Below, piece after piece: positions 1 through 47,911 of a stretch of DNA of 64,000 bases (position 1 is the stretch's first letter; the number at the start of each line of letters is the position of its first letter). The DNA is from Chrysomallon squamiferum. Lineage: Eukaryota > Animalia > Mollusca. The notes below the pieces were generated by a model. The model ran no database searches. It saw only the letters and a list, made by a program, of their open reading frames with translations, and had not been told where the DNA came from. Made by a program: the position numbers and the translations under genes. Location of the stretch: NCBI GenBank assembly GCA_012295275.1, contig CM022666.1, forward strand, positions 7,006,001 to 7,070,000, written 5' to 3'.

Positions 1-50
1 AAAAATTAAAAAAATAATTTTACTTATCATTTAATTTAAAAAAATTAATA

Positions 51-125
51 ATAATAATAATAATAATAATAATGATAATGATGATGATGATGATGATGAT
101 GATGATGATGATGATGATGATGATA
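51..125. repeat. (AAT)n/(GAT)n compound trinucleotide microsatellite
   Basis: Direct run of ata/aat followed by gat units. Confidence 0.9.
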
Positions 126-1194
126 GTAATATTTAAGAAATTAATTCCAATGTTATATAAAAAAAAAAAAATTCTATAGTTACACAACTAACTTTATAGA
201 CTGACAAATCAATCTTGCTAATTACAAAAAAATAAAAATTACAAAAAAAAAATAAAAAACCATATCTGGGGTTAAATGGCTGACTTTATAGACTGTTCAT
301 ACTCGCTAATTCCCTGAAAACTGTTATCAGTGGAATGTTATCAGTGAACCTGAAGATGAGTGGAAGGGAGACTATTAAGAGGTGGGGGGGTCTAAGCTGC
401 GTCTGCTTCACACAGCTAACTTTTAAACACTTCCCTCGACTCGTTTGCACCACTAACATCAGAGTTATCTTTCCCTGAACTCTCTCACTCGTAAACTAAA
501 TGAAATGAAAAAAGAAACAGGATGAAAACAAATGCTGTGTTATGGTAACCTAAGTTAATTTCTTTCTATTTTTTTGTTTGCACCCAGCTGTTTTAATAGA
601 CAGAAGGTGTAGGAATCAAATAAATATTATAAATAAAAATGAAGGGTGGAGATAAGCAAACTCTGGACAAAAAAACTTTCTGGGAGATAGATAAATAAAT
701 ACATACATACATATGTACATACATACATAAATAAGCAAATAAATAAATAAATAAATAAATAAATAAATAAATAAATACATACATACATAAACAAATAAAT
801 AAAATAAAATTTTACAAAAATTAAAAAGTCAAAAAAACTTCAAGTTTAAAAACTTGACACCAGAAAGAAAATAGGTTATTAAATTAATAACGCAAGTTTC
901 TGATTATTTGTCTTGGTCTGTCTGTCTACAATGTAATCTGTGTAATTTATTACATTCTTCACACACACACACATACACACATTCACTCTGCACAGGATAT
1001 TCACTAACACAAATGTACGGACATAATATGCAGACACAAATGAACATACACATGTCATTGCTCAAAACAGAGGGCTGGTTAGAACTGGAAATGTTGCAAA
1101 GATAACTAAAATACGAGTTTTTGTACAGAAATCACTGATCATTGACTGCCATGGACAACAGTCACAAAGGAACAAAATTAGTTCTAGGTTATTG

Positions 1195-42700: not shown

Positions 42701-45700
42701 TATGTATAAAAATAAAATAATATTATATTTCCAATGTGCTCAAGCAGTCACACAGAAAGTTTTTCACTTAAAAAAAAACCCAACTAATCCCCAAAACTAT
42801 GAGCTGACATTAACACTGGACAAGTCTATGCCAGAAGGTTTGATGCTATGACTGAATGTTCAGTCCTGCCAGACGCATGTTAAATGACATGATGATGCAT
42901 GGGTTGCTTTTTTTTTTTTTCTCTTTCTTTCTCTCTCAAAACCCTGAAGGAAATGTCAGGACAGAGGGCCCAGACTGTAGGAAGGCACCAGATTTGAGTC
43001 TGCATGTTGCAAAGGAAATGAGAAAATAAATGAATCCAAACTAAATTTAGCCAATAATGTTTCGTTTGATATTCTTGTTCTGTTAAGTCGAAAAAGGATT
43101 TAATTTTTTTCTCTTTCCTTTTTTTTTTTTTTTTTTTTTTTTTTATGAAGCTTGGTACAGAAGCACCTATTTAAAATAGATCACCTAAAGTTGGATTTGA
43201 AGCAAATAAAACTGAAAATTAGAAAGAAAAAGAAGGAAACGGCTCCAGTGTAAATTGTAATCGGATTTAGAGAAAATTGGAAACCTTTTTGCGATTTATT
43301 TATATAATTATTAATTATCTGGAGATTTATTTATTTATTTAATTTATTTATTTAGTTTTTTTTTTTTATTTTTTTTTTTTTTTACAATTTTGTTTATTTA
43401 CTTACTTACTACCTTAATTACTTACTTATTTATTTATTTATTGCATTTTACTTTCATTTTTTTCTATATAACACAAAAGCTTAATAAAGTAATTCAAAAT
43501 CAGTATTTAATACTCTAAAACTCCAAAATCATCAAAAATAAAATGTTCATGTTAAAATCATTTTCATATCTCTTTAACTTTTAAATCATGGCAGATACAG
43601 TACACATTACATTACACCAACTGCTAGATAAAAATTTTGTTTCCAACAATATTTGGCCAGAAGTAATAAAACAGTTGAAAATAGTTTATTTTATTTATTT
43701 ATTTATTTATTTATTATTGTTGCTGTTGTTTTACAAAGAAAATTTTTTCCCAAAGAAAATTGATGAAAACCTTTAATTAAACAAGTTTTGGGAATTTTTG
43801 CTCGAAAACAAAGTCAAAACAAAAACTTGACAGTGTTTGTTATTATATCAAATACAATAAACAAATAATACACGAAAAGGTATAATCAAAACAGACATAT
43901 ATCTCTGCTTTTTGTTAGTATATCTAATGTTCTAATTATTACAATATCACAGTAACAGTTATAATCAAAATGAACTTCTCTACTTTAATTACCAGATCCA
44001 GTGTTTCAGTTATTACAATATTGCCATAACACCTGGGGGGGTCAAACTCTCCCTTTCTGCCTTAATTATCTCAACCAATGTTTCAATTAGCACACTAATA
44101 CTGTAACAGTTCAGGTCAAACGCGCTTTAATGCCACTTTCAGTGGCTTAATCATACAAATTGGATTAACCTGTGACCTTCTGACCCCTCGGAGATAAATC
44201 CATAATCATTTTGTGCGCTGAAAGCCAGGACAAATGACATCAGATGAAAGGAGATGGAGAGAAAAGCATTGTGAAATTTTGAAATCTCGTTTGACTAATG
44301 GATTCAGGGGTGAAATACTGTTCGACTGTTTGTGGGTTTCTGTCCTGCAGAAGTAGAATTAAAATGATGGGATTCTTGGTTTGGTCGGCACACTCTGAGC
44401 TGGAATATTAAACTTTTTGTAGGTTTTCTTAGCCTTCGCGTTTTGTCACCAGACTGGAAACTAGGCAACAGTAATAGACCTGTTGATTTGATTTTTATTT
44501 TTTATTTGAATTTTTATTTTTTTTTGATGTTGCAAGCACACACAAATGTACACAATATGTTTTTAGCACAAAAAGGTTAGAATATTTCGGTTTGTTTTTT
44601 TGTTTTTTAATTTTGTAAAATTTTTATTATTATTATTATTATTATTTTTATTATTATTATTATTATTATTATTATATATATATTGTTTTTAACTGATATT
44701 TTTTTTTATTATTAATTTTTTACTCAGTTGTTATTAGTTTTTAATCATTTGTTATTGTTGTTCCATTATCATCATTGTCATCATTCATCTCATTACATTA
44801 TCTACTAGTTTTATAATAATAAAATTTAAAAAAAAAAAAAAAAAATACAACAATCAAAGAAAATTAAGAAAGTTATTTAAATGAAAGAAAAAAAGATCTG
44901 CTGGCCAAAGTACAAAACTTTAATTAAAATCTATTTATGTTCTGTATTTAACTTAGTTCTGCTACCGATATTAACATACAAACCTGTATGTATGTTAATA
45001 ATTAAAAACCAGAAAAAAAAAAACCCAGAAAAAATACAAATTTCTAACTTAGTAGTATGTCTAGTGTCAGAGTCCTATTAAAAATTATCTCTCAGCATAC
45101 ATTTGGCTAGATTCGTAAAAACTATTTTTAAAAAGCGATTTGTAGAGCTCAAAAAGCAGTCAGTTTATGACTGTAACATTTTTTTTTTTTTTTTAAATTA
45201 TACTTTAAAAATGTGGTTAACTGGTTTAAATTTGTAGAAATAATATTAACATAATTAAATATAATTTGAAGTTCAAGTTGGCACTTCAAAATGTAAATAA
45301 CTAAAATTTAAAAAAAAAAAAAAAAAAAAAGGAAAAGTATAATTACAAATATTCATCTAAATGAAAACTAATAATAATAATAATAATAATAATAATAATA
45401 AATAGTTTTCTTTATAAATATAAAAGAAATTAGTATTAGTATTACAAAATTTTAAAAATCATTCCAATAACTCCTTACAACTATAAGTGAAAAGAAAAAG
45501 ATTAACATATAATCAAATAATTCCCCCTCAGAAAAAAACAAACAAAACAAACAAAAAATAAACAAAAACAGTCATGGGGCTATGTTTGGATTGGGAATTA
45601 ACCCAGTTAGCAAAATGAAGAGGACAGATCATCCAACAACAAACTTAACCTCAGCCTAGTTCTCTATCCAGTGAAACACTGCCTTCTGTGTCTTAGAGAC

Positions 45701-47846
45701 CTTATAAAATGTGACCTTATTCAGCAAAATCTGTCCTACTGGTTCTAGGTCAAAACAGAGAGAATAATAATAATTTTCAAGCCATTAGGTTAAAAGTATT
45801 GATTTTTCAGTTTTCATCAAAATAAAGTGCTTCAGGCATTTTTGTTTTTGAAAATGTTACTCTGAAATTGTTAAAAGGAGAAATGCCGATTCATCTGAAG
45901 TTAGCTTGTTACATGGCTGTGAATTAGAATGAACTCTTAAACACTCTTTTCTCAAAACTGAAACTTCCAGACAAATTTGTTTTAATTATTAGCATCTTTG
46001 TTCAACTGCCAGTTTGCTTGTGAACCTATAATGATCAGATCTCTTAAATAAAAAATGTCATGAAAAGTGTAAGTATGACTCATTTTGGTATGTGTGGTCA
46101 CGTTTATTATTAATACAGTTACAGTATTTTTTATCTTTTAATAAAACTTTTTTTTTTAATCTGTTAAACAATTTTTCGGTTTAAGCAACAAAACAACATA
46201 TGATTCTAATTTAACAGCTGCAAAATAATTGTTTTTTTCAAATAACTATAACAATTTTTTACTATTATGATTTTGTTTTCTAACTACATTCATTTACTTA
46301 TATTATTTTTTTTTTTAAAAAAAAAAAAAAAAAAAAATGTTAAACTTTTTTTTTTTTTTTTTTTTTTTTTTAAACTACTACAGAATGGTTCTTTTTCATT
46401 TTCCCATAATCACCAATAAAACAAAAGGGCTTCCTTGGCCTATTTTATGAATGACAACGTTAGCTTTGAGTGAAGAAATGTGTTAATTTGAAAATGGACT
46501 TATCTAATAACAGTGAACGTGTGGGAGAAGCGAGTATGACACACTCTAATTGTGTGTGTGTTTGCGGAAACTCTTTATGTCATTCACAGTGTCAGCTACT
46601 AATAGTCTGTAACAGAAAATAAAATAAACACAGATTCTAGCTTAGTTTGAGATAATGGATAGAAGAAAGATTGTGGCTTTTTTTGAATCTGATGGCTTTT
46701 TTTTTTTTTTCCCCTGATGTTTCTGTTGGGTTTTTAATCTAAGGAGAATTCAAAAAAACCAAAATCAAAGAAAGTCATGAATTAGTTCATATTATTATTA
46801 TTATTATTATTATTATTATTATTATTATTATTATTACTATCATTTACTTATTATTACTATTATTATTGCTAAATAATTGTGAAATTATTATTGTTATTAT
46901 TATTACTCATGCTATTAATTATATTGCAGTTTTTATAATTATTACTTTTACTGTTATATTACTATTACCATTACCATTATTACTATTATCTTCATCATCA
47001 TCATCATCATCATCACTATCATTATTACTACAGCCACAAAATCTGAAAGCACTATATTTAACAGACCAAAGTTTATACAATTTGTTTTTTCTTTTCTTTT
47101 TTTCTTTCTGAGTATTTCAGGGATCAATAATCAGACAGATCATTAAAGAAGATAAAGATATATGTGACAAGAAAATCATCAATGCATCAGTGATTATTTC
47201 TGCAACTTTGAAACTAATCACTCAGTTTTCATGGCTACAGATTCCAATAAATCTGAAATATGGTTTTCTAAAGAGGTATATTTCATATCTGTGGCTGAAG
47301 AAAAAGAAACCCTTGTTTTTTGTTATGGTTTTTTTTTTTTTTTTGCTGTTCTTTTTCTACAAGTTAATATTGCAGTTTGTTTGATATACATGGAATAATG
47401 CAATTATTATGAGTGAACATTATCACTGTGTAGGTAGTTATGTTTTATTAAGAATGGATGGAAAGATGGATGGATGGATGGAGAGATGGACGTAAGTCAT
47501 TAAGAGTATTTTCTAAAAATACAAATTTAGTATTTTGCTCTAATGAACAATATAAACTGAGTCAAGGATTTCTGGCACAAAAAATGGTCACTGGTTAATT
47601 TTATATATCCTTCTTGGCAAGTCTCAGAGTTCACATGTCAAAAAAATAAATAAACAGTTTACAAAAAAGTACATTTTCTTCCTTTTTTAAAACAAATCAT
47701 CTTATAACCCAATTACTGTTTATTTATTTTCTTTGGCCATAAAACTTGTAGAGCGAACCTGCACACAAAAAGCAGAAAAAAAAAAAAAAAAAAAAAAAAA
47801 GTAGGTTATGGTGTTAGTAAAGTATTAGAAATATGTTTTCACTAAC

Positions 47847-47911
47847 CTGAACAGCAGAAATCCAAGGGAGGTAACTGCAACTCTTCTGACATCATCATTT
47901 ACATCACTAAC
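47847..47911 (-). CDS. PSMD1: PSMD1 exon [21 protein letters not shown](R), 65 nt, phase 0 to 2
   Basis: tttttgcag acceptor and gttagt donor. Matches human [22 protein letters not shown]. Confidence 0.93.

What the first reader, a model, noticed from the sequence alone, without database searches (positions are those of the whole stretch)
1..47911. 5-HT2 receptor nested antisense in a giant PSMD1 intron, apparently the intron that hosts HTR2B in humans
Seen: PSMD1 exons run down the minus strand to a 65-nt exon ending in LGFLLF-R (phase 2). No PSMD1 exon was found in the remaining 47.8 kb, which contains a plus-strand 5-HT2 receptor exon. Established: human HTR2B lies antisense within a large PSMD1 intron. 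From memory (needs verifying), that intron follows c.1883, the end of the 65-nt [22 protein letters not shown] exon, which is exactly the exon seen here. Inference: if this genome is a protostome, as the receptor's YPMRYGRNKT loop and huge ICL3 suggest, the nesting predates the protostome-deuterostome split. That would make HTR2B's locus the ancestral 5-HT2 position and imply long-term structural or regulatory lock-in between a proteasome gene and a neuronal receptor. I cannot check whether this has been reported in invertebrates.
Basis: partly seen in the sequence, partly recalled or inferred. Interest (0 to 1): 0.9.

Follow-up and report, generated by a model that had tools for sequence, protein, structure and literature searches.

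The report
Serotonin receptor nested in proteasome gene
In this snail the proteasome gene PSMD1 has a giant intron holding, on the opposite strand, most of a serotonin 5-HT2 receptor gene; other molluscs and vertebrates pair the same two genes, so the nesting likely predates the split between molluscs and vertebrates.

Summary
Confirmed. Seventeen PSMD1 exons run down the minus strand to the 65-nt exon 47911-47847. RNA contigs splice it to the TPEQCP exon, which is absent from the window, so the intron exceeds 47.8 kb. It holds a plus-strand exon (28643-30687) for TM3-TM7 of a 5-HT2 receptor; the TM1-TM2 exon lies outside. The source is a gastropod (nearest PSMD1: Gigantopelta).

In 18 of 18 mollusc species with both genes they share a contig, and in 13 their identifiers lie within 7. 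In a scallop and a zebra mussel the receptor model sits between two PSMD1 halves, the second starting at TPEQ. Human and mouse HTR2B are catalogued inside PSMD1, and a shark PSMD1 model also splits with its second half starting at R|TPEQ.

That human HTR2B occupies exactly this intron is still recalled, not shown. Capitella, Bradybaena and lamprey do not fit cleanly. The best reading is an ancestral bilaterian nesting, likely kept because the receptor can leave only by duplication and loss. The scan noted the same pair once before, in an arthropod (unchecked). My 10 paper searches found no invertebrate report. Synapsin-TIMP is a known precedent.

The parts
47847..47911 (-). PSMD1/Rpn2 65-nt exon ([22 protein letters not shown]), phase-2 donor of the giant intron
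   Evidence: both junctions seen in RNA contigs of X8 and X9
1..47846 (-). 5' part of the giant PSMD1 intron (over 47.8 kb; acceptor outside the window). About 14% tandem repeat; no Rfam match
   Evidence: repeat fraction; Rfam
28643..30687 (+). Last coding exon of a 5-HT2-family receptor: phase-1 acceptor, TM3-TM7, very long third intracellular loop, stop at 30685-30687
   Evidence: PF00001, 151 bits; 5-HT2A/2C/2B at E 1e-31 to 1e-24, next family 2e-18
1..28642 (+). 3' part of the receptor's own upstream intron (over 28.6 kb); TM1-TM2 exon not in the window
   Evidence: best profile hit E 0.098, on the wrong strand
53631..53845 (-). PSMD1 exon YAQETQHEK...LLHVA; 215 nt in the window with a one-base frameshift near 53757 that sequencing contigs do not share
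54372..63563 (-). 15 further PSMD1 exons (Gigantopelta residues about 49-555), plus one candidate short exon near 59102-59030; introns mostly 0.2-1 kb (boundaries approximate)
   Evidence: three junctions seen in an RNA contig of X9

Best explanation
A 5-HT2 receptor exon lies antisense inside the intron that follows the LGFLLF-R exon of this gastropod's PSMD1, and this nesting is likely inherited from the last common ancestor of molluscs and vertebrates. Shown: the layout in this window, the splice across the intron, and co-location of the two genes across molluscs and jawed vertebrates. Inferred: a single ancient origin. Inferred: how it is kept. A break or inversion end inside the intron would cut an essential proteasome gene, so the receptor can leave only by being copied elsewhere and then lost from the intron. 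HTR2A and HTR2C would be such copies whose PSMD1 hosts were lost after vertebrate genome doubling, and HTR2B would mark the original position. Inferred: the two genes are transcribed independently from opposite strands, and the intron is large because it must contain the receptor's own long introns.
For: Window. Scallop Mizuhopecten: OWF49074 (breaks after LFR), OWF49075 (5-HT2), OWF49076 (homology starts at TPEQ). Dreissena: KAH3809770 (N half), 774 (receptor), 783 (starts TPEQ). Patella caerulea and Sinanodonta N halves end at LFR, 1 and 2 locus tags from the receptor. Nemerteans Lineus and Tubulanus: same contig. Vertebrates: human and mouse nesting (PMC11694760 supplements; mouse coordinates also in PMC3420870). 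Two skates have consecutive accessions. Bamboo shark PSMD1 is split into chiPu_0001624 and chiPu_0001622, the latter starting RTPEQ. No positive co-expression in mammals.
Against: The human intron was not pinned to the protein junction by any search (searches gave nothing). The gene between the two shark halves was not identified, and the shark N half ends one exon early. Accession order shows neighbourhood, not strand, and is nesting evidence only where halves flank the receptor. Capitella: receptor and full-length PSMD1 on scaffolds of different length (175,920 and 537,039). Bradybaena: same chromosome but locus tags 1509 apart. Second Babylonia copy: another contig. Petromyzon HTR2B-like: another contig than PSMD1. 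H. asinina, H. cracherodii, Babylonia A and the two nemerteans are 83-1450 accessions apart, which is uninformative. No amphioxus, hemichordate or echinoderm pair was examined. The tree leaves the four 5-HT2 clades unresolved. The structural lock itself is inference and was not tested.
Confidence: 0.6

Rival explanations
1. The nesting is ancient but is kept by regulation: enhancers for the receptor lie in PSMD1 introns (a regulatory block with PSMD1 as bystander), or antisense transcription couples the two genes.
For: Ancient gene pairs often have bystander genes with very long introns (PMC3514665, passages). The intron is about 100 times the median PSMD1 intron here (494 nt). 17 kb lie between the receptor stop and the PSMD1 donor. 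A weak negative correlation in mouse (-0.33) could reflect interference.
Against: No conserved non-coding match to 75 other receptor loci (mostly short, distant contigs, so a weak test). Possible losses in Capitella and Bradybaena. HTR2A and HTR2C work without a PSMD1 host (own knowledge).
Confidence: 0.27
2. Molluscan and vertebrate 5-HT2 genes entered PSMD1 independently, or lie in different introns, so the likeness is convergent or only loose synteny.
For: The human intron was not verified by a call. The tree does not unite the vertebrate and spiralian clades. Lamprey and Capitella copies are unlinked. No invertebrate deuterostome was seen.
Against: A vertebrate PSMD1 model breaks at the same junction with one locus tag between the halves. 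Two independent landings of one receptor family in one gene among many thousands are improbable (inference). An earlier, unchecked note reports the same in an arthropod.
Confidence: 0.09
3. The layout is an assembly artefact or a truncated PSMD1 duplicate next to an unrelated receptor.
For: The window has a frameshift in one PSMD1 exon. The laid contigs differ from the window at 11 of 228 positions in that exon. No long read spans the region.
Against: A DNA contig (X3) and an RNA contig (X9) each carry one more base at the frameshift. The mRNA continues past the junction for about 1.26 kb. The same arrangement recurs in independent mollusc assemblies.
Confidence: 0.04

Closest known systems
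Vertebrate PSMD1 / HTR2B host-nested pair (PMC11694760 Supplemental Tables S1, S2)
   Same: Same two gene families, receptor inside the host. A shark model breaks at the same R|TPEQ junction. Opposite strands in human are recalled, not in the table.
   Different: Here in a gastropod. The receptor belongs to the spiralian clade with the YPMxYGRNKT loop, has a huge third loop, and has TM3-TM7 in one exon. The window's part of the intron (47.8 kb) is only a lower bound.
Synapsin / TIMP nested pair (Pohar et al. 1999; title seen in the reference list of PMC9409782)
   Same: A nested pair conserved between a protostome and human.
   Different: Different genes. Here the host is a housekeeping proteasome subunit and the guest a neuromodulator receptor.
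Conserved ancient microsyntenic pairs and genomic regulatory blocks (PMC3514665)
   Same: A long-intron housekeeping gene linked to a tightly regulated gene over great distances.
   Different: True nesting rather than adjacency. No enhancer evidence here. PSMD1 and HTR2 do not occur in that paper's main text; its supplement could not be read.
Abalone 5-HT2-like receptor (Haliotis discus hannai QEZ90772, in the cluster of P0001)
   Same: Nearest named relative of the guest: cluster representative P0001 has 51% identity over the exon and 85% over 228 tree columns.
   Different: RefSeq names most molluscan members 'dopamine' or 'octopamine receptor-like'.

Membership tests
5-HT2 serotonin receptors | Class A seven-helix receptor with TM3 aspartate, DRY-like, WxPFF and NPxxY motifs | tested here: met
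   PF00001 at 151 bits; motifs located; TM1-TM2 not in the window
5-HT2 serotonin receptors | Closer to 5-HT2A/B/C than to other amine receptors | tested here: met
   Top 29 of 156 PDB sequences are 5-HT2A/2C/2B (E 8e-32 to 9e-25), next is dopamine D4 at 2e-18
5-HT2 serotonin receptors | Activated by serotonin and coupled to Gq | not testable with these tools
   needs an expression assay
One-to-one orthologue of HTR2B | Groups with HTR2B to the exclusion of HTR2A/C | tested here: not met
   The 6 vertebrate rows form their own clade (SH-aLRT 100); the window is in a 15-row spiralian clade (98)
PSMD1/Rpn2 | Collinear homology over the N-terminal and PC-repeat regions, and a complete transcript | tested here: met
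   3277-nt RNA contig across the junction
Host/nested gene pair | Guest coding sequence inside a host intron, on the opposite strand | tested here: met
   for the TM3-TM7 exon:
Host/nested gene pair | Whole guest gene, including its first exons, inside that one intron | tested here: inconclusive
   TM1-TM2 exon and PSMD1 acceptor lie outside the window; in Mizuhopecten a full-length receptor model lies between the halves
Homologue of the vertebrate PSMD1/HTR2B nesting | Same PSMD1 intron position | tested here: inconclusive
   Shark C half starts at RTPEQ; human donor at hg19 231,951,895 precedes HTR2B; mapping of that donor to Arg628 is recalled only
Genomic regulatory block | Conserved enhancers for the guest in host introns | tested here: inconclusive
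   no non-coding match in 75 mostly short loci

The most novel reading that the evidence does not exclude
The PSMD1 intron after LGFLLF-R is the birthplace of the bilaterian 5-HT2 receptor. [quoted passage not shown] Position then identifies the true counterpart of vertebrate 5-HT2A/B/C among the several invertebrate 5-HT2 lineages, which sequence trees cannot order.
Probability: 0.25. Interest if true: 0.72.

Novelty: new member of a known kind. Interest (0 to 1): 0.5.

Why it matters
Nested gene pairs turn over quickly: only 25-31% of pairs with orthologues are shared even between human and mouse (PMC11694760). A pair kept from molluscs to mammals is therefore uncommon and joins synapsin-TIMP as a test case for why such pairs persist. 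It offers a positional marker for 5-HT2 orthology, useful because many molluscan members are annotated as dopamine or octopamine receptors and the tree is unresolved. It would also explain why PSMD1 is split at one junction in several draft annotations.

Tried and rejected
No whole genome is held, so the region left of the window could not be searched. 75 metagenome loci with 5-HT2 relatives held no PSMD1 exon (0 of 75), but their median length is 3.8 kb, 11 reach 10 kb, and the gap here is 17 kb, so this is no evidence either way.

Rfam: 0 matches.

Ten paper searches found no report of the nesting in invertebrates and no statement of the human intron number; subscription journals are mostly not covered. 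Supplements of PMC3514665 and PMC4850357 could not be read. Those of PMC8285521, PMC6131170 and PMC5007296 gave no PSMD1 variant in the files searched (many files not searched). The shark genome paper is not held. PMC7327943, PMC4380965, PMC3892944 and PMC8230051 (passages) were irrelevant.

Rejected: a truncated duplicate; a pseudogene from the frameshift; a vertebrate source; the long ORFs at 1-2.5 kb and 16.7-17.2 kb as genes (simple repeats). A first FastTree tree joined vertebrate with arthropod receptors at support 94; the IQ-TREE run left this fork open, so it is not used.
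Full report
Source. The window is AT-rich animal DNA (GC 0.23-0.41) with no N. No whole genome is held. The best named PSMD1 hit is Gigantopelta aegis, a peltospirid gastropod, at 74-100% identity per segment, so the source is a relative and not that reference. 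The best receptor hit is Haliotis (51% over the exon). The source is thus a gastropod; the species was not determined.

Host gene. tblastn with Gigantopelta PSMD1 places residues about 49-649 on 17 minus-strand exons from about 63563 to 47847, with one more candidate near 59100. By approximate boundaries the introns have a median of 494 nt, the longest being 5.7 kb. The last exon, 47911-47847, is 65 nt with AG and GT borders and ends in phase 2 within the Arg of LGFLLF-R. Mammalian PSMD1 chains in the PDB match the preceding exon at residues 564-605 and show PSVV at 634. That Arg is therefore residue 628, and c.1883 is its second base.

The intron is real. RNA contigs from two runs of one study (X8, X9) leave the window at 47846 with the same loose end, which reads TPEQCPSVVS on the minus strand. 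The X8 contig is 3277 nt long and carries the exon at 1952-2018. The loose end has 0 matches in the window with up to 3 mismatches. C-terminal PSMD1 from 7 homologues gives only chance hits (19-27 bits, against 37.7 bits or more for true exons in the control), and a profile search agrees. The intron is therefore longer than 47,846 nt. One exon (53845-53631) is 215 nt and frameshifted in the window. A DNA contig (X3) and an RNA contig (X9) each have one more base there, which points to an assembly error or a private variant. The laid contigs differ from the window at 11 of 228 positions in that exon, so they may come from another population or a close species.

Guest gene. A plus-strand exon from 28643 (after CAG, phase 1) to 30687 encodes 680 residues: TM3-TM7 with a very long third loop. 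It matches PF00001. The top 29 of 156 PDB sequences are 5-HT2A, 2C or 2B. In a 41-row IQ-TREE tree it falls in a 15-row spiralian clade (SH-aLRT 98) beside Haliotis and Patella. This clade, the vertebrate clade, an arthropod clade and a second invertebrate clade are unresolved among themselves (outgroup two octopamine receptors, arthropod and second-clade rows mostly unnamed). The TM1-TM2 exon is not in the window, so the receptor's own intron exceeds 28.6 kb. Receptor expression was not shown.

Other molluscs. No animal genomes could be searched, so I used contig lengths, accessions and model breakpoints. For 18 mollusc species both genes were retrieved. All 18 have them on a contig of the same length, and 13 of 18 have identifiers within 7 of each other (tally typed into). 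The clearest cases are these. Mizuhopecten: OWF49074 (homology ends after LFR), OWF49075 (5-HT2), OWF49076 (homology starts at TPEQ). Dreissena: KAH3809770 (ends at LLHVA), KAH3809774 (receptor), KAH3809783 (starts TPEQ). Patella caerulea: SNE40_001216 (ends after LFR) and 001217. Sinanodonta: ACJMK2_018492 (ends at LFR) and 018490. Consecutive RefSeq numbers occur in Mya, Dreissena, Haliotis rubra, H. rufescens, Pecten, Mytilus edulis and M. trossulus. The five others are 14 (Patella vulgata), 711 (Babylonia), 1161 and 1450 (two Haliotis) and 1509 (Bradybaena) apart. For the RefSeq cases I infer that numbering is not positional, but Bradybaena's locus tags suggest a real separation or a paralogue. 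These data do not give strand.

Other protostomes. The nemerteans Lineus and Tubulanus have both genes on one contig, 83 and 568 accessions apart. An unnamed 877,075-nt contig length is shared by a receptor ORF (P0057) and a PSMD1 piece ending at LFR (P0146). Capitella has the two on scaffolds of different length, which counts against conservation there. For Octopus, Lingula, Lamellibrachia, Paralvinella, Limulus and two myriapods only the receptor was retrieved.

Vertebrates. The supplementary tables of PMC11694760 (rows seen) list HTR2B (hg19 chr2:231,972,943-231,989,756) nested in PSMD1 (231,921,562-232,037,830), and the same in mouse, with Spearman correlations of -0.11 and -0.33. PMC3420870 (table passage) and PMC7579899 (passage) agree. 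Two skates have consecutive PSMD1 and HTR2B accessions. In bamboo shark PSMD1 is split into chiPu_0001624 (ends at LLHVA) and chiPu_0001622 (starts RTPEQ), with one unidentified tag between. A human circular RNA table (PMC4617279 supplement, 5 rows) has PSMD1 circle ends at 231,949,828 and 231,951,895; the circle ending at the latter is the most abundant of the five. I recall this as the end of the 65-nt exon 16, but no call maps it to the protein. The lamprey HTR2B-like gene is on another contig than PSMD1; other lamprey copies were not examined.

How it most likely works. One ancestral 5-HT2 gene sat antisense in this intron before protostomes and deuterostomes split (about 0.87 in total; inferred from the shared host and junction). 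I favour a structural reason for its persistence (0.6). A rearrangement that breaks the intron would destroy an essential gene, so the guest can escape only by duplication followed by loss, as may have happened for HTR2A/C and perhaps in Capitella or Bradybaena. A regulatory block is the main rival (0.27); long bystander introns are typical of such blocks (PMC3514665, passages), but no conserved element was seen in a weak test. Convergence or a different intron gets 0.09 and an artefact 0.04.

Novelty. The mammalian pair is catalogued. Ten searches of the held library found no invertebrate report. The supplement of PMC3514665, which lists ancient pairs, could not be read and may include it. 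Nesting conserved from fly to human is known for synapsin-TIMP (title in a reference list). This is a new member of a known kind, well supported, of moderate interest.

Noticed in passing
window 53757-53758: One-base frameshift in a PSMD1 exon of the window; a DNA contig (X3) and an RNA contig (X9) carry one more base, so probably an assembly error.
   Followed up: yes
window 47811-47882: Short low-depth contigs in both RNA runs read through the 5' splice site of the giant intron: unspliced precursor or DNA in the library.
   Followed up: no
proteins P0001, P0021, P0024, P0029, P0048, P0222, P0383: Many members of this 5-HT2 clade are named dopamine-, octopamine- or tyramine-receptor-like in RefSeq.
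   Followed up: partly
window 28080-28642: A TAT/TAA-rich repeat array of about 550 nt runs right up to the receptor's splice acceptor and keeps the frame open, giving a false 877-aa ORF.
   Followed up: no
window 1062-2530: About 1.4 kb degenerate GTGTG/GTG satellite with strong GC skew, open in several frames.
   Followed up: no
proteins P0008 and P0009: Babylonia areolata has two close copies of this receptor, one on the PSMD1 chromosome and one elsewhere: a possible escape by duplication.
   Followed up: partly
and one search hit lists: No named Gigantopelta 5-HT2 protein appeared although its PSMD1 is annotated; the nested gene may be unannotated there or hidden in another cluster.
   Followed up: no
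PMC11694760 supplement: Human PSMD1 also hosts the U1 pseudogene RNU1-93P 8 kb beyond HTR2B; the window has no Rfam match.
   Followed up: no
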